A stretch of 64,000 nucleotides of DNA from a virus: the IMG/VR virus record IMGVR_UViG_3300020125_000051, positions 17,008 through 81,007 of that record; one strand, written 5' to 3'. Position 1 is the first letter of the stretch, and every line of letters starts with the position of its first letter. A program made the position numbers and the translations under genes. Below the pieces are notes generated by a model. That model saw only the letters and a list, made by a program, of their open reading frames with translations, was not told the origin of the DNA and ran no database searches. This document shows, piece by piece, positions 47,895 to 62,504 of the stretch.

Positions 47895-47895
47895 G

Positions 47896-47966: not shown

Positions 47967-47977
47967 ATGCTATTGCG

Positions 47978-48050
47978 TGATCCATCTCGGGCTCGAACCG
48001 AGGACATGCGGATTAAAAGTCCGCCACTCTACCAACTGAGTTAATGGATC
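47978..48050 (-). tRNA. tRNA-Lys(TTT)
   Basis: Cloverleaf; loop CTTTTAA. Confidence 0.92.
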
Positions 48051-48058
48051 TCTCATTT

Positions 48059-49563: not shown

Positions 49564-49564
49564 G

Positions 49565-49635
49565 CTCCACCACCAGGATTCGAACCTAGATCAACCGATT
49601 AACAGTCGGTCGCACTGCCCTTGTGCTATGGTGGA
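49565..49635 (-). tRNA. tRNA-Asn(GTT)
   Basis: Cloverleaf; loop CTGTTAA. Confidence 0.92.
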
Positions 49636-49642
49636 ATGATCT

Positions 49643-49978
49643 TTATATTTTGAAGAAACTTTTTATCTTTACGATAATGTCATATAATATTTCTTGGTTT
49701 TGAACTTGAAATTTAATTAGTTTTATTACGCGCCACCAAATTACAAAAGCAATGGCGCCAATTACTATTGTCCAACCTTTAATAGCATCCATTCGTTCGA
49801 GGTGTGGAGCTACAAGTGAATAAATGAATGCTACCGCAAGCGCTAACATGAAGAAGAGTACATGCTTACCCATAGAATCACGCCATGGTTTTAACAGCGC
49901 GTACAATATGCAAAACGTTACGAATCCAGCAACAACAATCCAAACCAGAATCATCAACACAATCTCAGGGAGAGCCAT
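49643..49978 (-). CDS. Putative holin-like protein with three TM helices
   Basis: Three hydrophobic helices; Y.....PW....G..V pattern. Confidence 0.6.
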   Translation of the reverse strand: MALPEIVLMILVWIVVAGFVTFCILYALLKPWRDSMGKHVLFFMLALAVAFIYSLVAPHLERMDAIKGWTIVIGAIAFVIWWRVIKLIKFQVQNQEILYDIIVKIKSFFKI

Positions 49979-50210
49979 GGTTATTCCTTCTAAGCATGCT
50001 GTCGTTCATGGCTGCTGTAAAACTATCTACGCGGTACTTCACACGTCGAGCGCTCGCTACAGCTTTTGCTAGTTCTGGTAATTGTTGCTTTGTCTCAGCC
50101 AATTTTGTTTGGGCATTTTGCAATTTCTCATCTACTGAATCCTCATCAGTAAATGATGCTGCGGATCTCTCGGCTATCTTACGTTTTGTTAACCAATTCC
50201 ATAGCTTCAT
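49965..50210 (-). CDS. Small coiled-coil protein of lysis-cassette type
   Basis: Coupled between two membrane-protein genes. Confidence 0.55.
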   Translation of the reverse strand: MKLWNWLTKRKIAERSAASFTDEDSVDEKLQNAQTKLAETKQQLPELAKAVASARRVKYRVDSFTAAMNDSMLRRNNHGSP

Positions 50211-50521
50211 TATAAAACCTTCTCAACCGTTTGTGGCGGTAAGGCAGCTATCATTCCTTGCGCCCGGGAGACCTCTAGAATCTGTTCTATTTTTGAAGCT
50301 AGTAAATCATTTCGTTCATCTTGCAGTTTGTTAATTGTTTCAAGCTTATCGATGTATTTGTCTTTGTCTTGCAAAGACCTTTCATATAAAGCAACTATCT
50401 TATCTACTGCTGATTTTGTATATATTGCACCACTTCGAAGACCCAGGAATAAAAGAGCCAGAAATGCACCAGCCATGCCAAATTGAAGCCATGGCACAAT
50501 GTCGATGCCATTCGGTCCCAT
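50210..50521 (-). CDS. Single-TM coiled-coil membrane protein
   Basis: N-terminal TM helix, G.IYT, then coiled coil. Confidence 0.6.
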   Translation of the reverse strand: MGPNGIDIVPWLQFGMAGAFLALLFLGLRSGAIYTKSAVDKIVALYERSLQDKDKYIDKLETINKLQDERNDLLASKIEQILEVSRAQGMIAALPPQTVEKVL

Positions 50522-50591
50522 TTTTGCCTCATCTTGAATTGGTGCTCAACCGACCCCTCAGAGATTACGTCATAAAGGGCCGGCGAGACAA

Positions 50592-50849
50592 CTAATCAGC
50601 ACCATTTAATACCTCATAGCACTTCTGACAATCAAAATACACATCGTTGTCAGGATTTTGTGCATCTTCTAATGTGATGGCACGATCGCCCATGACCGCA
50701 TCACCACAGAAGCTGTTCATTGTTTCTAAGTTAATAACATGTGTAGTTGGTTCATTAATTTCTGTCATGTTATTCCTTAATTGAGGTTCTAATTGTCCAG
50801 GAGTTTCCCATGGTAATGCATATCTCCATGCTGGGTTCCTAGTAATCAC
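50592..50849 (-). CDS. Hypothetical Zn-binding protein
   Basis: H...CG...FDCQKC pattern, similar to 18241-18417. Confidence 0.55.
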   Translation of the reverse strand: MITRNPAWRYALPWETPGQLEPQLRNNMTEINEPTTHVINLETMNSFCGDAVMGDRAITLEDAQNPDNDVYFDCQKCYEVLNGAD

Positions 50850-50850
50850 G

Positions 50851-50922
50851 GTTCCACAGTAGGATTCGAACCTACACTATCACCGTTACCGGGCTGCCTC
50901 TACCAATTGGGCTATATGGAAC
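50851..50922 (-). ncRNA. tRNA-like RNA lacking an anticodon loop (CCG-GTAA-CGG tetraloop hairpin)
   Basis: Intact acceptor, D and T arms; truncated anticodon arm. Confidence 0.75.
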
Positions 50923-51060
50923 TTTATAGGATATGGTTACTGTTCGTTTCGAGTTGCTTTCAGTGTATACCCTAGCTGACCCTGACGAACCTGACCCATT
51001 TACTCATCTACCATCGTGGGATTTAAATCGTCGACTCCCACTCCCTCACCATATCTTACG

Positions 51061-51133
51061 CGATACCGACGGGATTCGAACCCGCATAATCCACCGTGAC
51101 AGGGTGGTGCACTGACCATTATGCTACGGTACC
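51061..51133 (-). tRNA. tRNA-Asp(GTC)
   Basis: Cloverleaf; loop CTGTCAC. Confidence 0.92.
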
Positions 51134-51477
51134 TTATTTAGTTATTTGCGAATATCTATCTTATGAGAACGCAATCTGGCAACTACTGAGTTTCTAGTCC
51201 AAACTATGCCAGTTGAATTAAAATCATCTATTATTTCATTAATGACTGCGTTACGCACATTAGCTTCAATACGTGTATGATAAGCAGCTAGTACAGGTTC
51301 CATGGCTTCGATCATTTGTCCACCGACACCTGCAAAGAAATCCGCCATAGCAGATGCTTCTTCGGGAGTAAGTGTGCCATTCATGTATACACTTGCTAGG
51401 AACTTATTACGAATTGCATCGTGCGATACAACAGTCATCTTAGTTCTTCCTGTGGTGTTTATTATTGATGGTACATG

Positions 51478-51550
51478 TGGAGAATATCGGATTCGAACCG
51501 ATCACCTCTGCCTTGCAAAAGCAGCGCTCTACCAAATGAGCTAATCCCCC
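51478..51550 (-). tRNA. tRNA-Ala(TGC)
   Basis: Cloverleaf; loop TTTGCAA; G3-U70 pair. Confidence 0.92.
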
Positions 51551-51644
51551 AATGACATATTGGGTGTGGTCCCATACCAGAATTCTAAACCCCTATCCAC
51601 AAAAGGGGTACTCTTGGCAGCGGTGCATATGTCAGACACCTCAG

Positions 51645-51725
51645 TGGGCATGGTTGGTATCGAACCAACTTTGCGTTATACGCATCGGTTTTACAGACCG
51701 ATCCCTGGACCTCCAGGACACACCC
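51645..51725 (-). tRNA. tRNA-Tyr(GTA), atypical short D loop
   Basis: Loop CTGTAAA; long variable arm; D arm CCTGG-AGGT-CCAGG. Confidence 0.8.
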
Positions 51726-52186
51726 ATATTCAATTATTATTCTCTTGATTTATTATTTGGATGTTCTGGACATTTATATTGATGTTCGAATCCGCGACAA
51801 CCTAAGCAATCATTGAACCAAGCTTCAATGTATCCATACCATCCACCTTTAGATCTAGATATGGTAGCATCTATCCTTTTAGCATTAGTGAATTCATCTG
51901 ATCTGATAACAACAGATACAATCGAAGACATTTGTAAGAATGTTTCGGTTGGTTCATCGCTGTACCATTCGCCCCATGTTCCATCTTTTATTATTCTTGT
52001 AGCCATGTCGGGATATGCCTCAGTTCCCATCTAGCATTGGCTGATGCTCTCTTACAATCATCACATCTACAACCATATCTATACTTAGTTGTAGTTCCAT
52101 GTGCAGGATCTCCATATTCTTTTTGTTCTAGCTTAGTTCTCATTGGCATTGTAATAATCTCCAATGCTATACATATATACAATTTT

Positions 52187-52264
52187 TGGTCGGGATAGTA
52201 GGATTTGAACCTACGGCCCCTGCGTCCCAAACGCAGTGCTCGTACCAAACTGAGCTATATCCCG
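52187..52264 (-). tRNA. tRNA-Pro(TGG), CCA encoded
   Basis: Cloverleaf; loop TTTGGGA. Confidence 0.93.
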
Positions 52265-52462
52265 TTGACTGGTGCAATGTTAGATAACGGAGGCGTAGGC
52301 ACATTAGGTGACTAGACTAATGCACGGCGTTTCTATTTGCATCTAAACATTGCGGTGATTGTAGTTGGTAATGGCTTCTGCTGTCGAGCATTATTAACAG
52401 TACCTACTACAACACTTTTACCAGTTGTTGGCTACAAACCCATGCATTGATTTATAGCTACG

Positions 52463-52534
52463 TAGTCTCGGAGGGAGTCGAGCCCTCTTCACAGCGGTGA
52501 AAGCGCTGTATCCTAACCCATAGACGACGAGACC
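52463..52534 (-). tRNA. tRNA-Glu(TTC)
   Basis: Cloverleaf; loop CTTTCAC. Confidence 0.88.
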
Positions 52535-52687
52535 TTATTTAATTGGTGATAGGTTGGTAGTTTCCTTAACACTACCGGTGCCACATTTTGAGCACATATC
52601 CGCAACTCAATATGTAGTCCACCACTGCCCTTTGTGTACTGTATTTATGCGGCCCATACAGCCTTACTGGATAGGCTACCCCTATCG

Positions 52688-52761
52688 TTGGACACCACAG
52701 GATCGAACTGTGCACCTCTACGTTATCGGCGTAGCGCTCTAACCAAATGAGCTAGTGTCCA
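52688..52761 (-). tRNA. tRNA-Ile(GAT)
   Basis: Cloverleaf; loop CCGATAA. Confidence 0.9.
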
Positions 52762-52864
52762 ATAACCCTCACCCTAGACAACTGGCATTGCTAGAGACTC
52801 TTGGGCTACGCACCTGCCAGGGCACTTGCATCGCAACGAGATTAACGAGTCCCGCCCAATACCG

Positions 52865-52935
52865 TACAGACAGAGAGGATCGAACTCTCGCTAGTAGATT
52901 GAGAATCTACCGGTCTGCCATTAACCTATGCCTGC
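52865..52935 (-). tRNA. tRNA-Glu(CTC)
   Basis: Cloverleaf; loop TTCTCAA. Confidence 0.88.
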
Positions 52936-53103
52936 TCACTACCAACTAACTTAATTGATAATACTTCATTTTCTTGGGCCATGAAAATACAAACTCCACC
53001 AGCGATGAACCTAAACCAACCACCTAATTGCTTATATTCATCAGCAATTACTATAGTAGGGATAGATGGTGTCTTAACATATCTTACATCATATTTATTC
53101 ATG

Positions 53104-53176
53104 TGCTTCCGGTGAGATTCGAACTCACACTTAAAGGATTTTAAGTCCTTCGCCTCTGCCATTGGGCTACGAAAGC
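53104..53176 (-). tRNA. tRNA-Leu(TAA)
   Basis: Cloverleaf; loop CTTAAAA. Confidence 0.92.
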
Positions 53177-53230
53177 TAGGTGACTATCCTTTACGGCGAT
53201 AGTCGTTCCGCTTCCTGTCGGGAAGTTATA

Positions 53231-54820
53231 TTAGATTCTACCTGCGCTAAACGCAGAAACCAATTTAGGCAAGTTTGAATCTGCGCCCGCTACGTCTAGC
53301 ATACCACTATCTGTGGGATTTGCAATAGAAAATCGCGTTGGAGTACATGCAACAACAATCAACTTTGCGTCATGACCTATAAACCTGCGATAATCCTTCA
53401 ATGCAACATGAGGATGTACATTACCAGCCCATGTTTCACTATCAGTCATTACCACAAAGGTATCAACGTCGATGCCACGTTCCTTGGCATATACCATTGG
53501 CAGTGAACAATCTGTACTACCAAAATTGCGATCCTTAGTTCTTTGCATTACTTCAGCTAGTGACATATTAGGTGCTATTCCCAAATCAACAAAATTCTGG
53601 GAGAATCCCATGATTTGGTAGAATGGCTCAGTTCTGGCAATCGTCATTGACATAGCTGCGCAAACTTCGGCAGCAGTTAAGTCAATGCCAGCCATCGACT
53701 GAGACATAGAACCAGAAACATCAAGAGCTATCATGGTACGCTTGTTAGCTGGTTCTACGTACTTAAAGGCACGATAGAAACCATCATCAAGTGCATTTAC
53801 GATAACAGGATTAGTTGCCCAATTCTTTTCATAGGTGTGACTCCATGCGTACTTACGATCACGCTGACCACGCTGATGCACAGTAGATGCTAGCAAATAC
53901 TGGAAAGGATGCAAGCGCGTACGCTGAATCATTTCCTCATCTACAAGCTTATCTGCATATGCACGAGCAAAGTGCATGTCCTCGAAAGCACCAATACGAG
54001 CAAGTCTAGTGATATTACGTACTAGAGCCTGACCGTTAAGCTGTCCATTACCGAAAAGCATCTTCCATACATCAGGAACCTTTAGGAATTGAGTAGGAAT
54101 GGCTTCCCAGGGAAGATTTGGATAACGCTCTAGTGCTGAAAGCACATGTCCTATCATGGTAGATGCTTGCATCCGCTTGAATCCAGCAATTATCAGCGGA
54201 TCTACATTAACTTCATTATCAAAGCCATGCACGAAATCGCCAATTGCCTTATTCAATCCCACAGGATGTGAAAGCATGAGCAAACCCTTGTGGGTCCAGC
54301 CGTTCCGTTGACGGTACTTTACCACCTGATACGCAAGGCTGTCAACATCCTTGCTAATGTACCAATCGGCAATCGCGCGCCGCTTTGCTCGTCCCCAACC
54401 ACCTAGAAGTTTGATATATTCAGCAAACTCGAATAGATGAGTTGACGTGCGACACACCTTAGCTAAGTCCTGCGAAGATTTTGCCTTGCCAAAGGTAAAC
54501 AGCGCGGCCAAACAAAAAATTGCAGGACTATTGCGGAAAGCACGGCCAGACTGTGAGATTTCAACTACAGTATCACGAACTAACTGCTCATCACGCTCAA
54601 TTAGTTCGCGTAGAAAGTTGATGTTATCCTTAGTAAGCTTCTGCTCGTCAACATAGTATGTTCCACCTTCGGTACCCAAAATAAGAAAACGCTCTAGGCG
54701 AGTCTTATCTGTTACCTCAAACGTAAAACCACCAGCATTGTTAGCAACCTGCCGAGGATCTTCTTGCTCTGACTGTGGTATTGGTGTTCCTAGTGTTCTT
54801 GAAAATACGTTGTTTGCCAT
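53231..54820 (-). CDS. rsr: Ro60/Rsr RNA-binding protein (TROVE + vWA)
   Basis: QV.NNAGGF.F, RL.RFLILG.EGGTYY, GGWGR..RRAI..WY, KYRQR.GW.H..L...SHP, AL.RN, DVSGSM MIDAS, TDCSLPM and TDSETW.G..HP motifs. Confidence 0.96.
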   Translation of the reverse strand: MANNVFSRTLGTPIPQSEQEDPRQVANNAGGFTFEVTDKTRLERFLILGTEGGTYYVDEQKLTKDNINFLRELIERDEQLVRDTVVEISQSGRAFRNSPAIFCLAALFTFGKAKSSQDLAKVCRTSTHLFEFAEYIKLLGGWGRAKRRAIADWYISKDVDSLAYQVVKYRQRNGWTHKGLLMLSHPVGLNKAIGDFVHGFDNEVNVDPLIIAGFKRMQASTMIGHVLSALERYPNLPWEAIPTQFLKVPDVWKMLFGNGQLNGQALVRNITRLARIGAFEDMHFARAYADKLVDEEMIQRTRLHPFQYLLASTVHQRGQRDRKYAWSHTYEKNWATNPVIVNALDDGFYRAFKYVEPANKRTMIALDVSGSMSQSMAGIDLTAAEVCAAMSMTIARTEPFYQIMGFSQNFVDLGIAPNMSLAEVMQRTKDRNFGSTDCSLPMVYAKERGIDVDTFVVMTDSETWAGNVHPHVALKDYRRFIGHDAKLIVVACTPTRFSIANPTDSGMLDVAGADSNLPKLVSAFSAGRI

Positions 54821-54824
54821 TTTT

Positions 54825-54850
54825 GAACGACCCCTTTCAAGGGATATATT
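54825..54850 (-). promoter_or_regulatory. Permuted Ro-type helix covering the rsr ribosome-binding site
   Basis: - strand AATATATCCCT-TGAA-AGGGGTCGTTC-AAAA-ATG contains both conserved Y-stem strands (TATATCC, GGGTCG). Confidence 0.6.
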
Positions 54851-54863
54851 GTGTTACATTACG

Positions 54864-54932
54864 TGGCATGGGTAGGATTCGAACCTACTTCCCTAGGACT
54901 GCGTAGCTTTTCCAATTAAGCCAATCCATGCC
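54864..54932 (-). ncRNA. tRNA-like RNA with defective anticodon arm
   Basis: GGCATGG/CCATGCC acceptor, D arm, perfect T arm; only 17 nt between D and T arms. Confidence 0.7.
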
Positions 54933-54935
54933 AAG

Positions 54936-55024
54936 TGGGGACACATGGAGTCGAACCATGTCAACTCAGACTGATCAATCTGAGGGCTAGTTTTGATCAG
55001 TATATACTAGCGTCCAAAGTCCCC
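54936..55024 (-). ncRNA. tRNA-like RNA with enlarged D arm and complementary D/anticodon loops
   Basis: GGGGAC/GTCCCC acceptor, GCTAGT/ACTAGC, CTCAGA/TCTGAG and CATGG-TTCGACT-CCATG. Confidence 0.7.
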
Positions 55025-55030
55025 TTGAAT

Positions 55031-55161
55031 GTTGGATATAGTTTGATAATCGGGGTTTTTGATAGCTCTTGGGCTCCGAATCGAACGGAGACCTTATACT
55101 TTTCAAGTATATATGCTACCTTTTACACTACCCTAGATAACCGACTATCGATCGACCCAAC
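55031..55161 (-). ncRNA. Y-RNA-like Y1: Ro-type stem carrying a complete tRNA-Phe-like cloverleaf
   Basis: GTTGGGTCGA..GTCGGTTATC...CCGATTATC..TATATCCAAC. Confidence 0.8.
55066..55137 (-). tRNA. tRNA-Phe(GAA)-like cloverleaf embedded in Y1
   Basis: TCTAGGG/CCCAAGA acceptor with one mismatch, TATAC-TTGAAAA-GTATA, CTCCG-TTCGATT-CGGAG. Confidence 0.7.
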
Positions 55162-55170
55162 AAAAATCTA

Positions 55171-56397
55171 TTAACCTTCTGCCATGATCTGATTATCTAT
55201 GTTTGCACCAGATGAATCTAGCACATTTCCAGAAATTGATAATCCGCCGCAGCCATCAGTGTGCTTAGCTGGAAAACCAGTACCAGGGAAAATAGGTCCA
55301 AATCTGTTGTTTAACAACGAACCGCGGTTCTGAGCACAGTAAACTGTGTACGAACCACCAACAAGTAAGTTGTTAGTAATTGTTAAGTTAGACTGAATTC
55401 CATGCCCAAAGTTTGGATCATTTGGGGGTCCAGAAGTAAATGTAGCATTGTCATCAGTCATTAAAACTGTGTTATGAATATACTGAATGTTGCTTTCGGA
55501 AGCAGAGCGCGCTGGCCAAACCTGAATACCATCAGTATGTGGATCTGGCGCTACACTATCACCCTTGAACATTCCATGTATATAAGAATCACGAATCGTG
55601 AAAACTGAGTTTGCGTCGCCACCGTTTTCGCAATTGCTAATATCGGCGCCAGTTACAAACAAAAATTCATCACCAAAAGCAGTACCACCATGCATACTAG
55701 GACCACAGAAAACAGACACATGATCCATAGTAGTTACGCCGCCACTATCGGCTGCACCAGCGGTTTCTACAACATAACCTGGAACATTGCAATTAACTGC
55801 AACATTCCTAAATGTTACATTTTGAGCTGTAATTACAGGACATCCAACAATAGTAACGTCATGAATTACTGCACCAGCAGTACCAAAGGTTAATGAGCCA
55901 CTATATGCTGGTAGACTTCCATGCGCGCCTGCCGTTGTGGCATCAGGGAAACCACAGGAACCAGGATTAGCCGCGCAATTGTTACCAGAAGGTGGTGGAC
56001 TCGTAGTAGTCGGAGGTGGAGTTGTCGTTGGTGGTGGATTAGTGGTAGTAGGTGGTGGAGTAGTAGTAGGTGGAACAGTCACCGTTGGTGATGGTGACGG
56101 AGAACCTGTTACTGTAGAACTAGGTGTTGGTGTTGGTGTTGCGGTTAGTCCTGCAATAACCTTTTGCTTGATTATAATACATTGTTGTGCTCTTGTCCGC
56201 TCAGCGGATGTAGTTGCAAATTGTAGGTCTAACTGACATTGTCTTAATAATCGTTGTGCATCGGTTAAATCTGAACTAGCATCCGCTGACGCTCGTTCAT
56301 TATTTGTAAAGATAACTAATGCACCAGTAATTAATGCCATAACTGCAAACCAAATTGCAATTTTCTGCCTTGTTGAACTTATGTGCGTTTCGAGCAT
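55171..56397 (-). CDS. Secreted protein: signal peptide, P/T linker, parallel beta-helix-like domain
   Basis: Hydrophobic N-terminus ending ASA; PPTTT repeats; PDATTAG, I.DSYIH, HTDGIQ and NN.L.GG.Y motifs. Confidence 0.75.
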   Translation of the reverse strand: MLETHISSTRQKIAIWFAVMALITGALVIFTNNERASADASSDLTDAQRLLRQCQLDLQFATTSAERTRAQQCIIIKQKVIAGLTATPTPTPSSTVTGSPSPSPTVTVPPTTTPPPTTTNPPPTTTPPPTTTSPPPSGNNCAANPGSCGFPDATTAGAHGSLPAYSGSLTFGTAGAVIHDVTIVGCPVITAQNVTFRNVAVNCNVPGYVVETAGAADSGGVTTMDHVSVFCGPSMHGGTAFGDEFLFVTGADISNCENGGDANSVFTIRDSYIHGMFKGDSVAPDPHTDGIQVWPARSASESNIQYIHNTVLMTDDNATFTSGPPNDPNFGHGIQSNLTITNNLLVGGSYTVYCAQNRGSLLNNRFGPIFPGTGFPAKHTDGCGGLSISGNVLDSSGANIDNQIMAEG

Positions 56398-56465
56398 TGT
56401 ACCTCCACTAGAAGAACTAACCGGAGATCAATGTCCAAATTATCACTTCCATTCATTTTAGCACG

Positions 56466-56548
56466 CGGAAGCTAAAGGAGTCGAACCCTTAGGTATTACC
56501 CTAGCCAGATTTTCAAGACCTGTTGCCCACCACTGAGCGCTAGCTTCC
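56466..56548 (-). tRNA. tRNA-Ser(TGA)
   Basis: Loop CTTGAAA; long variable arm. Confidence 0.9.
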
Positions 56549-56553
56549 TTGAG

Positions 56554-56625
56554 ATATCGGATATATTTGCGTTAATTGGATGGTCTGCAGAAACAGTTGA
56601 TAACCAATTAGCTTTGACCCGATAT
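56554..56625 (-). ncRNA. Y-RNA-like Y2 (minimal)
   Basis: ATATCGGGTCAAAG..ATTGGTTATC..CCAATTA..TATATCCGATAT. Confidence 0.75.
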
Positions 56626-56630
56626 TTAAA

Positions 56631-56825
56631 TTAGAGTAGTTCTCCTGCTAACTTTGTCATTGCTGATTTTGCTTCATGCAGTTTAACACATAGCGGAGAA
56701 TATAGAACTTTACCTGAACAATGTTGGGCAGCGTTTGCTTCTGAGTTTCTTTCCTCACGTACTATTGCCCAAATTAGTGCTTCATGTACCTTGTCAATTT
56801 CACGAATGATATCTGCTCTGTCCAA
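56631..56825 (-). CDS. Hypothetical protein
   Basis: Abuts the NlpC/P60 gene. Confidence 0.5.
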   Translation of the reverse strand: MDRADIIREIDKVHEALIWAIVREERNSEANAAQHCSGKVLYSPLCVKLHEAKSAMTKLAGELL

Positions 56826-57590
56826 TTATACAAACCTCTTAGCGGCATAGAATGAATACAAGTTGTTAATGATTACACCTTGCTTGTATCCGGCAGCTTC
56901 GACAATCTTACCATTACCAATATAGACAAACACATGACCAATGAACGGCCAAACTATATCTCCAGGTTGTAGATTGTTGCGAGACACCCGAACACCTTGG
57001 TTAGAATAAAGGATCTGTGCATCTTGATGAGGCACATTAATTCCAACCTGAGCTAGTGACATCATCACAAGACCAGAACAATCAAATGCATATGGTCCAG
57101 CAGCAGCCCAAGAATAACGCTTGCCAACCTGAGCTAATGCGTAGTTGACAATTCTTTGCGCTCTTGAAGTGTTAGCTGATGCTACTGTGGTGGTTGCCTT
57201 AATTACTGGCTTAGTTACTGGTGCCGTGGCAGGTACCGAACTAACCACAGGTGCAGTAGGTACAAAAATTTGCTGACCTACACCAAGCTGATTGCAGTTG
57301 GCAAGTTTATTATACTGACAAATACCTGGCCAATACCCAGGATTCGAATAGACAGCGTTGGAAATACCAAAAAGACTTCCATAAGGAGAAGGATACTTTT
57401 GAGTAGTAATCCAAGTGCCAATTGGCTTCGCTACGGCCACCGATTCAACAGCTTTTGCTGTTTCTGTTGCTGCCACTACCTTCTGGTCGACTATTGTCGT
57501 CGCTCCCGCAGGAGTTGCAATGGCAAAAACGCTAATACTTATGAGTAGGCTGCCTAATGAAGCTTTTATGGCAGACTTGGATCTAGACAT
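56826..57590 (-). CDS. Secreted LysM-like + NlpC/P60 peptidoglycan endopeptidase
   Basis: Signal peptide; LysM-like SLFGIS...W..I...N....L.VGQ.I.VP; Y.W...GP..FDCSGL, LQPGD and HV..Y.G.G motifs. Confidence 0.9.
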   Translation of the reverse strand: MSRSKSAIKASLGSLLISISVFAIATPAGATTIVDQKVVAATETAKAVESVAVAKPIGTWITTQKYPSPYGSLFGISNAVYSNPGYWPGICQYNKLANCNQLGVGQQIFVPTAPVVSSVPATAPVTKPVIKATTTVASANTSRAQRIVNYALAQVGKRYSWAAAGPYAFDCSGLVMMSLAQVGINVPHQDAQILYSNQGVRVSRNNLQPGDIVWPFIGHVFVYIGNGKIVEAAGYKQGVIINNLYSFYAAKRFV

Positions 57591-57764
57591 TTATATCCTA
57601 TCTCTTTGCGAAAACAGACAGGATGAGCTAGTTAGAGTTTAAAGTCTGTTTTCGCCCCTGTTTGAATATTAAATTGTATTTTAGATGCATGTTAGCTTTG
57701 TTTCACCACCCTTTTAGAGGCAAGTATACGGATCTCCCGTATCACCATACGCTAACATGCAACG

Positions 57765-57836
57765 TGCCAAGAGCAGGACTCGAACCTGCGCATCATGTTC
57801 TTCAGACATGCGCTCTGCCAACTGAGCTATCGAGGC
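57765..57836 (-). tRNA. tRNA-Phe(GAA)
   Basis: Loop CTGAAGA; two acceptor-stem mismatches. Confidence 0.82.
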
Positions 57837-57840
57837 AATG

Positions 57841-57900
57841 ATAAGGATATATTTTTGTCATCGTTATTTGCTGTGATAACCGATGAACTTTGACCCTTAT
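57841..57900 (-). ncRNA. Y-RNA-like Y3 (minimal, 60 nt)
   Basis: ATAAGGGTCAAAG..ATCGGTTATC..CGATGA..TATATCCTTAT. Confidence 0.72.
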
Positions 57901-57908
57901 CTCAAAAC

Positions 57909-58313
57909 TTAAATTCCGTCTAGAATGTCTGGTGCGGCTGTTTCTTCTGCTGTTGGTGCTGTCGTCGCTGGTGGCTCTGGCGATGCTGCCTCAACGGCAG
58001 TGTCGAGTGTAGTAAGTTGATTGCTCGCATCAGTTAGTGCAGTCTCGGCATCACTGAGTGCTGAAAGTGCACCAGTAACATCTGGCGAAGCCTGGCTAAG
58101 TAGCCGAGTAACATCCTTAACTAATTCAATCGTGTTTTTGAGCACTGTCTGAGTAGCTGTAGAAACTTCAGCTACCTTAGCAGTTAGTTCGTCGACGCCT
58201 GCCATTACCTGATCCACCTTTGCTGGTAGTTCTGGATCACTTACCACGGTAGTGTGGAAGTGTATGGTAGTAACGGATGATGGGATTCCATCTAGATGGA
58301 AGAAAACATCCAT
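57909..58313 (-). CDS. Acidic coiled-coil protein
   Basis: Heptad-like A/L/V pattern. Confidence 0.6.
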   Translation of the reverse strand: MDVFFHLDGIPSSVTTIHFHTTVVSDPELPAKVDQVMAGVDELTAKVAEVSTATQTVLKNTIELVKDVTRLLSQASPDVTGALSALSDAETALTDASNQLTTLDTAVEAASPEPPATTAPTAEETAAPDILDGI

Positions 58314-58336
58314 TTGACCAACTTTCTTTAGTGCAG

Positions 58337-58409
58337 AGCCACAGGTAGGAATTGAACCTACGAAAACAGGTTTTGCAGACCTGCGCCTTTACCATTCGGC
58401 CACAGTGGC
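58337..58409 (-). tRNA. tRNA-Cys(GCA)
   Basis: Loop CTGCAAA; U73. Confidence 0.9.
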
Positions 58410-58410
58410 G

Positions 58411-58487
58411 TGGGGTGTATGACGGGATTTGAACCCGCGAATGACTAGAGTCACATTCTAGCTCCTGATGCCTCCGGATCATACACC
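58411..58487 (-). tRNA. tRNA-His(GTG), G-1:C73 and CCA encoded
   Basis: Loop ATGTGAC. Confidence 0.85.
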
Positions 58488-58489
58488 AG

Positions 58490-58562
58490 TACCAACGAGG
58501 GGAGTCGAACCCCTAACAACTAGAACCTAAATCTAGCGCCTCTGCCATTGGGCTACGTTGGC
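58490..58562 (-). tRNA. tRNA-Leu(TAG)
   Basis: Loop TTTAGGT. Confidence 0.9.
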
Positions 58563-59015
58563 AAGTTATTAGGATTCCATTCATGGTATGTTACAGTTGA
58601 AATCCTTTTGATTGTACGAGTTAACACAGTTCTATTGCTAAATTGCAACATACATTCATCACAAATATTAATCATTAACTGGTGAATATTAGACATTGGA
58701 TCCCAGACCGTACTACCATATTGTCCACTTGAGTAAAATGTAGTAGCTTCTTGTGGTTGGAAATTCCATCGGTTAGTATCTCTATCCGAGTCAGGTTTAA
58801 AGACAGGTTCCAATTCTTTATCACATTTGAAACAATTAACTGGTAGCTTCATTTTTGTCTCCAGACATAAAAAGATGGTTCCTTTTGTTATCAAGAGTAG
58901 GAACCAAAAAGCTCTCCGTCAACAAGGAATTTTTTCAGCCCGGTTACGTCTGGCTTAAAATTATGTTGACTCAAACGTTTCGACGGTTACCTTTATACCG
59001 AGGTAACAGCGGTTG

Positions 59016-59642
59016 CTAATTAAGTAACGCTGTATCAGTCACAGTGTAAGAACCTCGGGAGATCCATACATAACCTGTGGTGTTGTTAAATTCAACCTGG
59101 AACATTGTTGACTTATTTACGTCAGTGCCAAATCCATTGATTGTGCCAGCGAAAGCCATGATTGGGTTATTCCACTGATCGCAAAGCTGCGCTACTGCCG
59201 CAGTACCAGCAAAGTGGTTCTTGACTGAGCGCCAAGCAAAGTTTACTAATGGAACACCACGATCATTGTTTTCAATTCGAATCTTATAGAATTGCTGCGA
59301 ATTGGCAAACAATGCTGGTTGAGCATTATCAGAAACGTAAACTGTCGTAAATCCTACGGTTCTTATGATACCCTTCCCACAGGAGACTTGAATAACCGAA
59401 GAATCTTCGATTTTCTTGCCATCTGAGTTATATCGATCAAACATATGATCAGTATCAAAGCCTAAACTTTCGCAATGAGCCTGATACACAAGTTGGCCAT
59501 CAGTACCATAGTTATAGATGGTACCTGGTGAATTTCCCAATGCTCGCATAGCTGCCGCAATTGAATTGCTGACACTTGAGCAGCCAGATAAAGTAACTAT
59601 TGCTAGCACTAGACCAGCTAGTACTACAAAACTTTTTTTCAT
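59016..59642 (-). CDS. Lipoprotein
   Basis: MKK, hydrophobic core, LSGC lipobox. Confidence 0.8.
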   Translation of the reverse strand: MKKSFVVLAGLVLAIVTLSGCSSVSNSIAAAMRALGNSPGTIYNYGTDGQLVYQAHCESLGFDTDHMFDRYNSDGKKIEDSSVIQVSCGKGIIRTVGFTTVYVSDNAQPALFANSQQFYKIRIENNDRGVPLVNFAWRSVKNHFAGTAAVAQLCDQWNNPIMAFAGTINGFGTDVNKSTMFQVEFNNTTGYVWISRGSYTVTDTALLN

Positions 59643-59643
59643 T

Positions 59644-60057
59644 TTATCCTTTATTTGTTTTATTTGTCAAATTTTGTGTTGCTCTATACTGACGATCGTA
59701 TAACCGTTTATACTCTTTACATAAATCACATCTACAATGATGATAAGTATACCCAGAACCAGTACCGTGCGGTACTGACCTATTATAGTTTTCATCATTG
59801 TTTTTTAATGCATGACAAGTTTTACATAAAACTTGGCATTTAGCTAATTCATTTATTCGCTTTGGATTTGTTTTGGCTAATGACCATACGCTCGCCACGG
59901 CGAATCCTTTGGAAGATTTATCTTTGTGATCCACTTCCAAATTTTCTTTAGAACCACACCGTTTGCATGGACCGTTTTCGTTGATCCACTCTTCTCTTCT
60001 AGCCTTAATCCAAGCCAATTGGTATTCACGTTTGTCTTCTTTTGAAGCAAAGGGCAT
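59644..60057 (-). CDS. HNH endonuclease with C-terminal CRC Zn motif
   Basis: C..CG...LEVDH, CQVLC..CH..K and HGT.SGY....CRC..C; start taken at MPFAS. Confidence 0.8.
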   Translation of the reverse strand: MPFASKEDKREYQLAWIKARREEWINENGPCKRCGSKENLEVDHKDKSSKGFAVASVWSLAKTNPKRINELAKCQVLCKTCHALKNNDENYNRSVPHGTGSGYTYHHCRCDLCKEYKRLYDRQYRATQNLTNKTNKG

Positions 60058-60080
60058 AATCACCACCCTATTATAATAAG

Positions 60081-60163
60081 CGGAAGATAAAGGATTCGAA
60101 CCTTTGGAGGTTTCCCCCACTGTCTTAGCAGGACAGCCCGATCGTCCACTCTGGCAATCTTCC
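60081..60163 (-). tRNA. tRNA-Ser(GCT)
   Basis: Loop CTGCTAA; long variable arm. Confidence 0.9.
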
Positions 60164-60216
60164 AGATGCTAGCAGAGCCACGCAACTCTGCTAGCATTTC
60201 TCCTCCCCCGGAGAAG

Positions 60217-60288
60217 AACCGATGACCAGAATCGAACTGGCATACTCTGATTGGAAGTCAGATTCCTTAACCATTAGGAGACATCGGC
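60217..60288 (-). tRNA. tRNA-Gly(TCC)
   Basis: Loop CTTCCAA; U73. Confidence 0.9.
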
Positions 60289-60290
60289 AG

Positions 60291-60421
60291 ATGTTGGATA
60301 TAACTTGTGATCGGCGTTTTGTTCTACTTCCCAATTCTGGGTTGGGCGTGCTAAATTACACTAAACTCAACAGTTTCCTGTTTTCTTGGGTTAGATAACC
60401 AATCAACTTTCGACCCAACAT
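60291..60421 (-). ncRNA. Y-RNA-like Y4: tRNA-like domain opened at the T loop
   Basis: Ro-type stem, GAAA-capped acceptor, D arm, and CCCAA-CCCAGAA-TTGGG arm. Confidence 0.75.
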
Positions 60422-60727
60422 GTAAAACATAATCCGCACCAGTGCAACATACGTTGGACGATGCGGAAGATTGATTGCCCTTCCAATCATAGCGTCTAGA
60501 ACGCTTATGGTTCCAAGCCTGTGATCTTCCCCAATATGATTGGAAGGGCATTTGCAGCACACGGGACAATGGTACCATTGTAAGGCGCCCGGTGCAACAG
60601 CAATAAAACCATGGTAGTGATGGGCTGACCTAATTTCACCACACTTATAGTTCGTCACGAAGATTATTGAACTATAAGACTACAGCCAGTACCGACCATC
60701 GATAGCACCACACCATGGAGCTAGTGC

Positions 60728-60837
60728 TATGGATATATTAGCGAATATCGGGTTTAACTAGGCGCCGAGCCATCGATGGAGTCGAACCATCTTTCGTCTG
60801 ATTAACAGTCAGATAACCAATATTCTTTCGACCCATA
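60728..60837 (-). ncRNA. Y-RNA-like Y5: tRNA-Asn-like domain opened at the D loop
   Basis: Ro-type stem, TCTGA-CTGTTAA-TCAGA, and GATGG-TTCGACT-CCATC. Confidence 0.78.
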
Positions 60838-60840
60838 ACG

Positions 60841-60911
60841 CGCGAACTGTAGGATTCGAACCCACAATAACCGCTTTGGAGACGGTTGTGTTACCATTAC
60901 ACTAAGTTCAC
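60841..60911 (-). tRNA. tRNA-Trp(CCA)
   Basis: Loop CTCCAAA. Confidence 0.9.
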
Positions 60912-61020
60912 TAGAGCAGTGGATATCTGTGATGCACTCACCACTGCGTTGTGCAATGACATACGGCCGTATGCCAACCCGCTAACCATACTTGTTGAGC
61001 TTTCGGTTAGTTCGGTCCAG

Positions 61021-61093
61021 TACCCTCAGAAGGAATTGAACCTTCTACTTCTACGTTCGTAGCGTAGCGCTCTGTCCGATGAGCTATGAGGGT
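61021..61093 (-). tRNA. tRNA-Arg(ACG)
   Basis: Loop CTACGAA. Confidence 0.9.
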
Positions 61094-61098
61094 TAAAA

Positions 61099-61232
61099 GT
61101 TTGGATATAAGTTGAAATCGGTGTTTTTATATGCGCTCTGCCACTGAGCTAATATACGGAATTTCACCGTACGATACAGGAGTCGAACCTGTGACCTCAT
61201 ATTCCTGATAACCAATTTCTGTCGACCCAAAC
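61099..61232 (-). ncRNA. yrlA: YrlA-type Y RNA (Y6): tRNA-like domain opened at the anticodon loop
   Basis: Ro-type stem, then T arm ACAGG-TTCGACT-CCTGT, loop-closed acceptor, and D arm TAGCTCAGTGGCAGAGC. Confidence 0.88.
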
Positions 61233-61238
61233 CAAAGA

Positions 61239-61403
61239 CTAATTAACAAATGATTGGAACGCAGATATTACGTCGTTGTCGTCACTTACAGCTTCAACAA
61301 TACGTTTAGCTGCCTTTGCCAATTCTGAATCTGGCGCTGTTTCAATGAGATCCTTTAAATCTATTTGTGAAACATCAACCAGTGGTGTAAAGACTTGATC
61401 CAT
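61239..61403 (-). CDS. FxSxx-COOH (FxsA)-like peptide, 54 aa
   Basis: Translated by hand: MDQVFTPLVDVSQIDLKDLIETAPDSELAKAAKRIVEAVSDDNDVISAFQSFVN; SD GAGG. Confidence 0.72.
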   Translation of the reverse strand: MDQVFTPLVDVSQIDLKDLIETAPDSELAKAAKRIVEAVSDDNDVISAFQSFVN

Positions 61404-61567
61404 TTTTACCTCATTATAGAAATGTGTCTGGCGCTGTCCCCAATATCACAGCCTCTAGCAACCTACCCCACCAGCTACATTATTTTGATTACGTGTCTCG
61501 AACCAACACCACACGCTTGTCAGACCCATACTGGTGCAGGATGTCTGATTTCCACTAAAAAGCTAAT

Positions 61568-61635
61568 GATACAGATATAAAAACGCTATCGGAGTAATCA
61601 TCCAGTAAGATAACCGACAGCAATCGACCCGCATC
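61568..61635 (-). ncRNA. Y-RNA-like Y7 (minimal)
   Basis: GATGCGGGTCGA..GTCGGTTATC..CCGATAGC..TATATCTGTATC. Confidence 0.72.
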
Positions 61636-61644
61636 ATAAAAAGT

Positions 61645-61798
61645 CTCGTGAATATAGTTAAGAATCGACCGTTTATTCTCACACGCTATGGACATAAACC
61701 ACTACGTGCTGCCACTGCCATGTGGCGTGCTACTGGAGTAAATCCAGTAACAGGATTCGAACCTGTAATTAGATAATCGATTCAATTCGACTCACGAG
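61645..61798 (-). ncRNA. Y-RNA-like Y8: T arm, closed acceptor and an extra domain
   Basis: Compensated stem GAGTCGA/TATATTC and ATCGA/TCGAT; ACAGG-TTCGAAT-CCTGT; TACTGGA/TCCAGTA. Confidence 0.75.
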
Positions 61799-62160
61799 TC
61801 AAATCCTTGCCAATCTTTAAAATCTGGAAAAGCTTCTTCAATCGTGTATGTCAACCTTGGTCGAGTGGGATTTATTACCCTAGTTTTCGACTTAGGCTTT
61901 TTGGCACGATCATTATTGCAATTTATATGCGCAAGTACCATATTATCATCTGATCGTGCTTCTTCTTTTGTACAGAATTGAAGTTCTTTAATGTGCTCAC
62001 GGGACGCTTCGTCTCTGCGACATGGATTGAAGCAGATTTGACATATCCCGTTATCACGAACAAAGATTCGATTCAATTGCACAGTTTTATCGTTTGAATC
62101 TTTTCTATTTCTACGGGCTGTAGCATTCATTGTTTCATAATTAGGCTTTTTACGGCTCAC
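61792..62160 (-). CDS. HNH endonuclease
   Basis: RD.GICQIC, S.EHI and N.VLAH..CN motifs. Confidence 0.8.
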   Translation of the reverse strand: MSRKKPNYETMNATARRNRKDSNDKTVQLNRIFVRDNGICQICFNPCRRDEASREHIKELQFCTKEEARSDDNMVLAHINCNNDRAKKPKSKTRVINPTRPRLTYTIEEAFPDFKDWQGFDS

Positions 62161-62272
62161 ATATTATCACCACCTAGCTTTTTTAGTGCAACTCTTCTTC
62201 CATCACCACGGCATGTGAACATGTTGGGCGGCAGATGCTTCATAATGGAACCTTTAGTTGCCATCGTATCAG

Positions 62273-62346
62273 TGGCGGGAATCGGATTCGAACCGATGAC
62301 CTCTCGGCTTATGAGGCCGGAATGCTGACCACTGCACTACCCCGCT
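62273..62346 (-). tRNA. tRNA-Met(CAT), initiator-like 1:72 mismatch
   Basis: Loop CTCATAA; A1-C72 mismatch. Confidence 0.88.
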
Positions 62347-62432
62347 ATGATGGTGGATTGTTGGAAATTGCTTAATAGAGCCAACTTCTCTTCGGATATT
62401 ATACCGGATATTGGACATCCACCATGCCCTAG

Positions 62433-62504
62433 TACACTCAGAAGGAATCGAACCTTCAACCCTCGCGGTGTAAACGCGATGCTCTGCCATTGAGCTACGA
62501 GTGC
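62433..62504 (-). tRNA. tRNA-Val(TAC)
   Basis: Loop TTTACAC. Confidence 0.92.

What the first reader, a model, noticed from the sequence alone, without database searches (positions are those of the whole stretch)
53231..61798. Phage Ro60 with an array of eight modular Y RNAs that display tRNA in all four circular permutations
Seen in the sequence: a full Ro60/Rsr gene and eight - strand elements (55031, 56554, 57841, 60291, 60728, 61099, 61568, 61645). All share 5' G(G/A)GTCRA-n-TYG(G/A)TTATC ... CRAT-n-TATATYY 3'. The outer closing helix differs in every copy but always pairs, and Y8 shows two compensatory G-C to A-U changes. The cargo differs: an intact tRNA (Y1), a tRNA opened at the T loop (Y4), at the D loop (Y5) or at the anticodon loop (Y6, the known YrlA design), a T arm plus an unknown domain (Y8), and no tRNA cargo (Y2, Y3, Y7). 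Established: bacterial Rsr binds a bulged GNCGA helix of Y RNAs; YrlA RNAs mimic tRNA and are known from some phages; rsr-yrl loci are linked to RNA repair and decay. Inference: a toolkit in which one protein ring is loaded with interchangeable tRNA-face adaptors. These could be decoys for host anticodon nucleases or tRNA-targeting toxins, or tethers for tRNA-processing enzymes. I know of no description of T-loop-, D-loop- or acceptor-attached Y RNAs, or of this many per locus, but could not search.
Basis: partly seen in the sequence, partly recalled or inferred. Interest (0 to 1): 0.96.

Follow-up and report, generated by a model that had tools for sequence, protein, structure and literature searches.

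The report
Phage Ro60 gene, eight Y RNAs
An uncultured 81-kb soil phage carries a gene for the ring-shaped RNA-binding protein Ro60 and eight genes for its small partner RNAs (Y RNAs) threaded through its tRNA cluster; the system is a known kind, but several of these RNAs imitate tRNA in layouts I found described nowhere.

Summary
A full-length Ro60 gene (53231-54820, - strand) lies beside eight - strand RNAs that share one two-helix closing stem. A covariance model of that stem finds exactly these eight in the whole 81,007-bp phage genome. In relatives it hits almost only near Ro60 genes, always on their strand, with compensatory changes at 15 of 16 pairs. The stem carries the Ro60-contact word of bacterial Y RNAs. 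It is the same module as in a mycobacteriophage YrlA-type element and in bacterial rsr loci. So these are unannotated Y RNA genes, a known kind of system.

Arrays are common in this lineage: 2-6 in GenBank Streptomyces phages and 11-14 in one relative, so eight is not a record. This scan has also noted such arrays on other DNA.

"All four circular permutations" is only partly right. Y6 and Y8 have the known YrlA order. Y1 (whole tRNA cloverleaf joined at its acceptor end) and Y4 (stem in the T-arm position) are real designs that recur in the closest relatives. Y5 is the YrlA order plus an anticodon-like hairpin, minus the D arm, not a D-loop permutation.

Function (adaptor or decoy) is inferred. 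No RNA data exist.

The parts
53231..54820 (-). Ro60/Rsr gene, 529 aa: TROVE ring plus vWA domain with MIDAS motif
   Evidence: Pfam hits; PDB matches 2nvo and 1yvp; 57% identical to 'Ro-like RNA binding protein' of Streptomyces phages
55030..55162 (-). Y1: Y stem enclosing a native-order tRNA cloverleaf (55066-55137, anticodon GAA, G73, A4.A69 mismatch), joined through the acceptor end
   Evidence: R2 63.3 bits; tRNA 55.9 bits; ARAGORN. The same design occurs in G003 L055:8703-8831 and G005 L057:9961-10096
56554..56625 (-). Y2: plain hairpin Y RNA (YrlB-like); tRNA-Ser starts 5 nt downstream
   Evidence: R2 54.7 bits; fold; sub-threshold Rfam hit RF01656, a nematode sRNA family, 28.5 bits
57840..57901 (-). 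Y3: plain hairpin Y RNA; tRNA-Phe starts 3 nt downstream
   Evidence: R2 56.2 bits; fold
60291..60421 (-). Y4: capped acceptor-like stem, then UA, a D arm (GUGU-AAUUUA-GCAC), G, and an anticodon-like arm (CCCAA-CCCAGAA-UUGGG). No T arm: the Y module sits where the T loop would be. tRNA-Gly starts 2 nt downstream
   Evidence: R2 65.4 bits. The D and anticodon-like hairpins appear in the MFE. The full cloverleaf is -28.3 against MFE -32.6 kcal/mol. No tRNA model hit. A probable counterpart with the same outer helix and exact tRNA spacers is in G005
60726..60839 (-). Y5: anticodon-like hairpin (loop CUGUUAA, identical to the phage's tRNA-Asn loop), 5 nt, T arm, 3-bp hairpin; no D arm. Starts right after tRNA-Trp
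   Evidence: R2 50.9 bits; local tRNA model match to positions 9-63, 21.2 bits; alignment with full-length counterparts; the same truncated plan in G003 L055:11519-11631
61098..61233 (-). Y6: YrlA-type (T arm, closed acceptor hairpin, D arm; Y stem at the anticodon position); tRNA-Arg starts 4 nt downstream
   Evidence: R2 63.1 bits; Rfam YrlA 24.6 bits, below the gathering score of 69
61566..61637 (-). Y7: plain hairpin Y RNA, in tandem with Y8
   Evidence: R2 57.4 bits; fold
61645..61798 (-). Y8: variant stem (GAGUCGA / UAUAUUC), T arm, 7-bp closed hairpin, expanded D-like region (YrlA order). The stop codon of the upstream HNH ORF lies inside its 5' stem
   Evidence: R2 63.9 bits; Rfam YrlA 13.6 bits; ORF list

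Best explanation
The locus is a phage Ro60 gene with eight unannotated Y RNA genes of the bacterial and actinophage YrlA/YrlB kind, embedded in the phage's tRNA operon.

Shown: all eight share one docking module. It consists of a variable outer helix ending in G-G-G.U-U:A, an unpaired CGA (word GUCRA), a second covarying helix, and a conserved UUAUC / AAAC junction. This module occurs almost only next to Ro60 genes.

Inferred:
1. The array is transcribed with the tRNAs.
2. RNase P and tRNA 3'-end processing of the abutting tRNAs cut out the Y RNAs, or at least set one end of five of them.
3. Phage Ro60 binds the shared stem.
4. The second module of each RNA then decides what the Ro60 particle meets.

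Three RNAs are bare hairpins. Five present tRNA-like bodies fused to the stem at three different places: the anticodon/N26 side (Y5, Y6, Y8), the acceptor end (Y1) and the T-loop position (Y4).

By analogy with Rsr-Y RNA-PNPase in D. radiodurans and in Thermus phage phiLo, the most likely role is as tethers or gates. They would couple Ro60 to host exoribonucleases or tRNA-recognising enzymes during infection.
For: - The motif is far above chance, and R2 finds exactly 8 hits in the complete genome.
- Across 229 kb of the window plus 9 related Ro60 loci there are 33 hits. All lie on the Ro60 strand, nearly all within 3 kb upstream of Ro60.
- Covariation: 84% of cells pair against 63% in shuffles and about 40% when partners are slid; 15 of 16 pairs show changes on both sides.
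- Whole records of Phredrick, Faust, Bmoc, Bxz1, G002, G003 and G005 give 2-11 hits each, clustered at Ro60.
- In a pattern scan of IMG/VR, 5 of 6 contigs with a structurally valid match carry Ro60, and the sixth is a 77%-complete fragment. None of the 23 chance-like contigs has Ro60 in the stretch fetched.
- The word GUCGAAAG in Y4 and Y5 equals the GNCGAAN0-1G motif that Chen et al. 2014 link to Rsr binding, and it resembles GGUCCGA of vertebrate Y RNAs (PMC4201824).
- The same stem frames a T arm / acceptor / D arm element upstream of Ro60 in mycobacteriophage Bxz1.
- R2 hits overlap sub-threshold Rfam YrlA hits in bacterial rsr loci.
- tRNAs abut the Y elements: 2-5 nt follow Y2, Y3, Y4 and Y6, and about 0 nt precede Y5. 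In L002 the order is tRNA-Y-tRNA-Y-tRNA.
- D. radiodurans Y RNAs are likewise co-transcribed with a tRNA (PMC4201824).
- phiLo Ro60 binds two phage Y-like RNAs and forms a complex with host PNPase (PMC12135203).
Against: - There is no expression, end-mapping or binding evidence: no RNA run holds this DNA.
- No element reaches Rfam's YrlA gathering score; the best is 24.6 against 69.
- Only 2 of 8 carry the exact GNCGAAN0-1G word.
- The 5' ends of Y1, Y2, Y3, Y6 and Y8 lie 5-8 nt after, or overlap, the stop codon of an upstream ORF, with no tRNA there. They may stay attached to mRNAs.
- No promoter or terminator signal stands above chance.
- The partner of the second modules is unknown, and no PNPase or RNA-repair gene was seen in the window.
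Confidence: 0.78

Rival explanations
1. Decoy toolkit. The tRNA-like modules, some with authentic anticodon loops, are baits for host tRNA-cleaving defence nucleases or toxins. Ro60 holds or protects them.
For: Anticodon-like hairpins (5-bp stem, 7-nt loop CU-NNN-A-N) sit in front of the T arm in Y5 and in many relatives, with different triplets:
- GUU in Y5, identical to the phage's tRNA-Asn loop
- GUG and GUC
- GAU
- UUU and CAU

The nested cloverleaves show GAA, GCG and CCA in three phages. Y1 has G73 and an acceptor mismatch, and a canonical tRNA-Phe exists elsewhere in the genome. It therefore looks like a mimic rather than a decoder.
Against: - No defence nuclease or target is identified.
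- The triplets follow no known nuclease target set. My own idea of a queuosine-family UGU loop failed on the G003 and G005 loops.
- Three of the eight RNAs have no tRNA part.
- The known YrlA function is tethering, not bait.
Confidence: 0.15
2. Only the docking stem, and perhaps a T/D elbow, is functional. The variety of cargo is evolutionary debris from tRNA gene duplications, deletions and rearrangements in a tRNA-rich region.
For: - Y5 lacks about 30 nt that its counterparts in Phredrick, Faust, L002 and L006 have.
- Y4's cloverleaf is 4.3 kcal/mol above the MFE and gives no tRNA model hit.
- Y1 and Y4 share the outer helix and two words in swapped order, as a rearrangement would leave.
- Cargo sequences are barely alignable between phages.
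Against: - The three unusual plans recur in phages whose Ro60 is only 61-62% identical. The nested cloverleaf is in G003 and G005, the T-position cloverleaf with exact tRNA spacers is in G005, and the truncated Y5 plan is in G003.
- Stems of the anticodon-like hairpin covary while the loop frame CU...A is kept.
Confidence: 0.2
3. The stems are cis-acting 3'-end or processing structures of the tRNA-punctuated mRNAs. They would act as protective 3' hairpins or nuclease entry sites, not as free Y RNAs.
For: - In four cases an ORF stop is followed after 5-8 nt by a Y stem and then by a tRNA (Y2, Y3, Y6) or by more RNA (Y1).
- The HNH stop codon lies inside Y8.
- The segment between tRNA-Trp and tRNA-Gly reads Y5-ORF-Y4.
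Against: - Conserved unpaired bases match the Ro60 contact word.
- The elements track Ro60 genes across phages and bacteria.
- In relatives, Y elements stand directly between tRNAs with no ORF.
- There are no U tracts.
Confidence: 0.08
4. Y1 is simply a working tRNA-Phe gene. Its precursor carries a Y-like leader-trailer helix, so Ro60 would chaperone or time its maturation. RNase P and 3' processing would release a normal tRNA.
For: - The tRNA model scores 55.9 bits, inside the range of the phage's other tRNAs (36-69).
- The T loop and the D-loop GG are canonical.
- N73 is followed by C, as in the phage's other tRNA genes.
- M. smegmatis YrlA is cut by RNase P and receives CCA (PMC4201824).
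Against: - It has G73 instead of the A73 usual for tRNA-Phe (own knowledge), and an A.A mismatch in the acceptor stem.
- A canonical tRNA-Phe(GAA) with A73 lies at 57764-57836.
- The counterparts in G003 and G005 have non-canonical T loops, and the G005 one is missed by ARAGORN.
Confidence: 0.15

Closest known systems
YrlA and YrlB Y RNAs of S. Typhimurium, M. smegmatis and mycobacteriophages (Chen et al. 2014, PMC4201824; Rfam RF02553; structure in Wang et al. 2018, bioRxiv 10.1101/312249)
   Same: - Encoded beside Ro60/rsr on the same strand.
- Terminal stem with the GNCGAA-type word.
- One class with T arm, closed acceptor and D arm (Y6, Y8, partly Y5), and one class of plain hairpins (Y2, Y3, Y7).
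- The same stem is seen in Bxz1.
   Different: - Eight per locus instead of the two or so described.
- None reaches the Rfam gathering score.
- Y1 (native-order cloverleaf joined at the acceptor end) and Y4 (stem at the T-loop position) have no described counterpart that I could find.
- The hairpin that the paper calls 'V' here has the frame of an anticodon loop.
Thermus phage phiLo Ro60 with Yrl1 and Yrl2 (NAR 2025, PMC12135203)
   Same: A phage-encoded Ro60 with Y-like RNAs upstream. The RNAs have a stem-bulge-stem plan with a CGAA word. A complex with host PNPase was shown there.
   Different: phiLo has two simple RNAs, and no tRNA-like modules are reported in the passages I read. The host phylum differs. 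Here nothing has been tested biochemically.
D. radiodurans Yrn1/Yrn2 and the Rsr-Y RNA-PNPase machine (Chen et al. 2013, 2014)
   Same: Y RNAs are made from a polycistronic precursor with a tRNA. According to the paper, the order of the T and D arms relative to the 5' end differs from YrlA, so more than one topology is already known.
   Different: That is one or two RNAs per genome in a bacterium, not a set of three attachment designs in one locus.
Vertebrate Y RNAs and nematode stem-bulge RNAs
   Same: The 5' strand GGGUCGA...GGUUAUC resembles GGUCCGA...GUUAUC of human Y RNAs (own knowledge of the hY1 sequence). Y2 gives a sub-threshold hit to RF01656, a nematode sRNA family that, as far as I recall, belongs to the stem-bulge Y homologues.
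   Different: No Rfam Y_RNA hit. The second helix and the junction are specific to the bacterial and phage lineage.
Circularly permuted tRNA genes of red algae and archaea (Soma et al. 2007, as cited in Wang et al. 2018)
   Same: tRNA bodies written in rotated order with a closed acceptor stem.
   Different: Those are processed through a circular intermediate into working tRNAs. Here the rotation point carries a protein-docking stem, and no splicing motif was looked for.

Membership tests
Y RNA (Ro60-associated non-coding RNA) | Encoded close to a Ro60/rsr gene, on the same strand (bacterial and phage Y RNAs) | tested here: met
   All 8 lie within 7 kb upstream of Ro60 on its strand. The same holds for 33 of 33 hits in the window and relatives.
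Y RNA (Ro60-associated non-coding RNA) | Stem formed by the 5' and 3' ends, carrying the conserved Ro60-contact word (GNCGAAN0-1G in bacteria, GGUCCGA in vertebrates) | tested here: met
   The stem with covariation is present in all 8. The exact word is in Y4 and Y5, and the core GUCRA is in all 8.
Y RNA (Ro60-associated non-coding RNA) | Bound by Ro60 in vivo or in vitro | not testable with these tools
   Needs RIP or EMSA.
Y RNA (Ro60-associated non-coding RNA) | Discrete stable small RNA (characterised ones are 80-130 nt, Chen 2014) | not testable with these tools
   No RNA run holds the DNA. Predicted sizes are 62-72 nt (Y2, Y3, Y7), 114-136 nt (Y1, Y4, Y5, Y6) and 154 nt (Y8).
YrlA (Rfam RF02553) | Score at or above the Rfam gathering threshold (69 bits) | tested here: not met
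   Best scores are Y6 24.6 and Y8 13.6 bits. The model also finds nothing at threshold in Bxz1, Phredrick or Faust, so it is too narrow for phage members.
YrlA (Rfam RF02553) | Order T arm, closed acceptor stem-loop, D arm inside the Ro-binding stem | tested here: met
   Met for Y6 and Y8 (expanded D region). Y5 has the T arm and a vestigial acceptor only. Not met for Y1, Y2, Y3, Y4 and Y7.
tRNA (for the insert of Y1) | Cloverleaf scoring above the RF00005 gathering score, called by ARAGORN | tested here: met
   55.9 bits against 29; ARAGORN tRNA-Phe(gaa) 55065-55137.
tRNA (for the insert of Y1) | Identity and end features of a decoding tRNA-Phe (A73, fully paired acceptor stem, free ends after processing) | tested here: inconclusive
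   G73 and an A4.A69 mismatch. The ends are buried in the Y stem, and whether RNase P frees them is unknown.

The most novel reading that the evidence does not exclude
A lineage of actinobacterial phages has turned the Ro60/Y RNA pair into a combinatorial kit. One docking stem is fused to tRNA bodies at three different points (acceptor end, T-loop position, anticodon/N26 side). Ro60 particles thus present different faces of a tRNA, including authentic anticodon loops of varying identity, to host tRNA-recognising enzymes or tRNA-targeting defence nucleases. Each design would have its own partner.
Probability: 0.25. Interest if true: 0.8.

Novelty: new variant of a known kind. Interest (0 to 1): 0.6.

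Why it matters
What the tRNA-like half of bacterial Y RNAs does is still open; Chen et al. 2014 raise it as a question. These phages provide a natural experiment. The same Ro60 handle is joined to a tRNA body at different points and with different anticodon-like loops, and the designs are conserved across phages whose Ro60 proteins are only about 60% identical. That shows which tRNA faces stay exposed, and it gives a defined set of RNAs to test for partners such as RNase P, modification enzymes, PNPase or anticodon nucleases.

In practice, dozens of sequenced actinobacteriophages carry 2-14 unannotated Y RNA genes that the current Rfam YrlA model misses at its threshold. A stem-only model recovers them.

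Tried and rejected
- Megablast of the locus against GenBank phages: no match.
- Rfam at gathering scores: only tRNAs in the window, and tRNAs plus tmRNAs in 8 relatives' loci.
- Sequencing runs: no RNA holder is listed. 24 soil metagenome DNA runs hold the stretch. Contigs of four runs laid on it show no variants, so no population-level covariation test was possible.
- Promoter and terminator scan: counts are as in shuffles.
- PHROGs and Pfam on neighbouring ORFs: no RNA repair or decay enzyme; the 408-aa ORF next to Y1 has no family.
- My idea that the anticodon-like hairpin mimics queuosine-family tRNAs (loop CUGUNAA in Y5, Phredrick, Faust, L002): dropped. G003 has CUGAUAU and G005 has CUUUUAA and CUCAUAA, and Bxz1, Bmoc and Cece differ again.
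- Y4 cloverleaf by energy: 4.3 kcal/mol worse than the MFE, and no tRNA model hit on the 135 nt alone. The reading rests on the G005 counterpart, not on Y4 itself.
- Matching the eight to G003's seven by global alignment: scores too low to assign pairs.
- Scan of genome contigs with the Ro60 protein: only 3 MAG loci, so no test against the experimentally studied M. smegmatis locus.
- Chen 2014 supplements and the two Wolin-laboratory reviews are not held.
- A possible ninth element at 54836-55033 is not detected by either model. I leave it out of the count.


Full report
**What the window is.** The window is bases 17008-81007 of an 81,007-bp IMG/VR virus record with direct terminal repeats, rated 100% complete. 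Large ORFs, untested, fill the + strand up to about 25 kb. Replication genes lie on the - strand: family A DNA polymerase, primase, SNF2 helicase and ThyX. From about 44 kb onward, 29 tRNA genes sit on the - strand. The Ro60 ORF (53231-54820, -) is full length. It has TROVE and Ro60-type vWA domains and a MIDAS motif, and it matches D. radiodurans Rsr and X. laevis Ro60 end to end. Its nearest named relatives are the 'Ro-like RNA binding proteins' of Streptomyces phages of the Stanwilliamsviridae, at 57% identity. The DNA occurs unchanged in many soil metagenomes.

**The observation.** The 5' word GGTCRA-N-GGTTATC occurs 7 times, all on the - strand within 6.5 kb, against 0.05 expected. Y8 carries a variant of it. 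All eight stretches fold into the same frame:
- an outer helix of 4-6 variable pairs plus G-C, G-C, G.U, U-A;
- an internal loop with CGA on the 5' side and UAU on the 3' side;
- a second helix whose sequence differs in each copy but always pairs;
- a junction UUAUC / AAAC.

I built two covariance models, one from the eight elements (R1) and one of the stem only (R2). R2 finds exactly the eight in the whole genome.

**Is it a real RNA family tied to Ro60?**
- In the window plus nine related Ro60 loci (229 kb, both strands), R2 gives 33 hits. All are on the Ro60 strand and nearly all lie within 3 kb upstream of Ro60.
- On their alignment, 84% of cells pair, against 63% after shuffling and about 40% with slid partners. 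Fifteen of 16 pairs show changes on both sides. A G.U pair is kept in 29 of 33 sequences, and the neighbouring U-A switches to C-G. That alignment is fitted to the model, but the slid controls share this bias.
- Whole-record searches give 6 hits in Phredrick, 6 in Faust, 2 in Bmoc and 2 in Bxz1, and 6 in G002, 6 in G003 and 11 in G005. Looser locus-level searches give 7 in G003 and 14 in G005.
- An exact-pattern scan of IMG/VR gave 29 contigs. Only 6 have a paired outer helix. Five of those 6 encode Ro60 and the sixth is a fragment. None of the 23 others has Ro60 in the stretch fetched.

**Is it a Y RNA?**
- Chen et al. 2014 define a 5' word GNCGAAN0-1G that overlaps the Rsr-protected bases and resembles vertebrate GGUCCGA (PMC4201824). 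Y4 and Y5 read GUCGAAAG, and all eight keep GUCRA.
- In mycobacteriophage Bxz1, the same stem frames three elements upstream of Ro60. The middle one has a T arm, closed acceptor and D arm, which is the YrlA plan that paper reports for mycobacteriophages.
- In two Anaerolineae genomes, R2 hits flank rsr and overlap sub-threshold Rfam YrlA hits.
- Rfam's YrlA model gives only 24.6 bits on Y6 and 13.6 on Y8, against a threshold of 69. It also misses the relatives, Bxz1 included, at threshold.

Membership of the broad Y RNA class is therefore well supported by anatomy and context. Formal Rfam membership is not met, and binding is untested.

**The second modules.**
- *Y2, Y3, Y7* are plain hairpins, like the YrlB/Yrn2 class.
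- *Y6* has the YrlA order with near-consensus T and D arms.
- *Y8* has a T arm, a 7-bp closed hairpin and an expanded D-like region, again in YrlA order.
- *Y5* aligns along its 5' half and its 3' tail with elements of Phredrick, Faust, L002, L003 and L006. Those read anticodon-like hairpin, 5 nt, T arm, closed acceptor, D arm. Y5 lacks about 30 nt, covering most of the acceptor hairpin and the D loop. The same short plan is present in G003, so it is stable. It derives from the YrlA order and is not a separate D-loop permutation.
- *Y1* encloses a native-order cloverleaf that scores 55.9 bits as tRNA. It has G73 and an A.A mismatch, and a canonical tRNA-Phe lies elsewhere. G003 has a nested cloverleaf at the matching position (ARAGORN Arg-GCG). 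G005 has one that folds as a perfect nested cloverleaf (z = -5.9) with a CCA loop and a non-canonical T loop.
- *Y4* has a D arm almost identical to that of the phage's tRNA-Gln, then G, then a 5-bp/7-nt hairpin, preceded by a capped acceptor-like stem. On its own this is weak. But G005 L056:2393-2523 shares Y4's outer helix. It reads 5-nt strand, 7-bp closed acceptor, UA, D arm, G, anticodon-like arm, 5-nt variable loop, then the 5-nt strand that pairs with the first. Every spacer is that of a tRNA, and the Y module stands where the T loop would be. The 5-bp closing helix and the 7-bp acceptor hairpin appear in its minimum-energy fold.

Three attachment points thus recur in this lineage. A fourth, in the D loop, was not found.

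**Processing.** tRNA genes start 2-5 nt after Y2, Y3, Y4 and Y6, and Y5 starts right after tRNA-Trp. In L002 the order is tRNA-Y-tRNA-Y-tRNA with 3-5-nt gaps. tRNA processing would therefore set these ends, as for D. radiodurans Yrn2-tRNA-Yrn1. The other ends follow ORF stop codons by 5-8 nt, so some elements may remain mRNA 3' ends. This is the main open point.

**Function.** All of this is inference. By analogy with Rsr-Y RNA-PNPase and with phiLo Ro60-Yrl-PNPase, I favour tethering or gating. The decoy idea remains possible, because the anticodon-like hairpins keep the CU-NNN-A frame with varying triplets. No target is known.

**Novelty.** In the library I could search I found no paper describing more than a few Y RNAs per phage locus, or acceptor-end or T-position designs. 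Wang et al. 2018 already describe YrlA as resembling a circularly permuted tRNA. Chen et al. 2014 note that Yrn1 and YrlA differ in arm order. Earlier notes of this scan report Y RNA arrays of 4-14 in other phages, including Streptomyces phages. The array as such is therefore a new member of a known kind; the Y1 and Y4 designs are the new variant.

Noticed in passing
window 58414-58487 (-): A tRNA-sized gap between tRNA-Cys and tRNA-Leu folds as a cloverleaf with anticodon loop AUGUGAC (GUG), an 8-bp acceptor stem with G-1:C73 and a normal T arm. It is probably a tRNA-His that ARAGORN missed because of an odd D arm. Rfam tRNA-Sec gives 27.4 bits.
   Followed up: partly
window 54836-55033 (-): Between Y1 and the Ro60 start codon, an 8-bp helix (UUCAAGGG / CCCUUGAA, next to a TATATCC word) encloses two more tRNA-like domains. 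One has acceptor, D and T arms but a truncated anticodon arm (tRNA model 23.7 bits). The fold has z = -3.6. Neither Y model detects it, so it is not counted as a ninth Y RNA.
   Followed up: partly
window 54821-54865 (-): The Ro60 leader holds TATATCC and GGGGTCG in reversed order around the likely ribosome-binding site. The small hairpin is not more stable than shuffles (-6.2 kcal/mol, z = -0.3), and it competes with the closing helix of the element above.
   Followed up: partly
window 55163-55173, 56626-56633, 57902-57911, 61234-61241, 61792-61798: Five Y stems begin 5-8 nt after, or overlap, the stop codon of an upstream ORF. The segment between tRNA-Trp and tRNA-Gly reads Y5-ORF-Y4. Y stems may therefore double as mRNA end structures in tRNA-punctuated transcripts.
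   Followed up: no
L057:7571-7710, L057:8576-8718, L055:11519-11631, L001:8140-8277, L002:9259-9398, L021:5724-5867, L023:3788-3925: The hairpin in front of the T arm of many YrlA-type elements ('V' in Chen 2014) has a 4-5-bp stem and a 7-nt loop of the form CU-NNN-A-N. It lies 4-5 nt before the T arm, which is the geometry of an anticodon arm plus variable loop. The triplets differ between phages (UUU, CAU, GAU, GUG, GUC, UCA, UCC).
   Followed up: partly
window Y1 (55027-55165) and Y4 (60289-60423): Y1 and Y4 share the outer helix, the D-arm word TAGTGTAA and the word CCCAAGA (the acceptor 3' strand in Y1). The last two stand in swapped order. This is what a tandem duplication followed by end deletions would leave, but one shared 7-mer is near chance expectation.
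   Followed up: partly
G005 (L056 1-12000, L057 98000-110163): A 110-kb phage with terminal repeats and a Ro60 61% identical to this one carries 11 (strict) to 14 (loose) Y stems upstream of Ro60. This is the largest array seen here.
   Followed up: partly
L020:8452-8508 (Gordonia phage GMA2): A Pistol ribozyme match above the Rfam gathering score (56.8 against 34.5 bits) lies between tRNA-Trp and tRNA-Gln, just downstream of the phage's Ro60 gene and a sub-threshold YrlA hit.
   Followed up: no
window, all tRNA genes 44353-62504 (-): Almost every tRNA gene encodes the discriminator base plus a single C and not the full CCA. Only tRNA-Pro has CCA.
   Followed up: no
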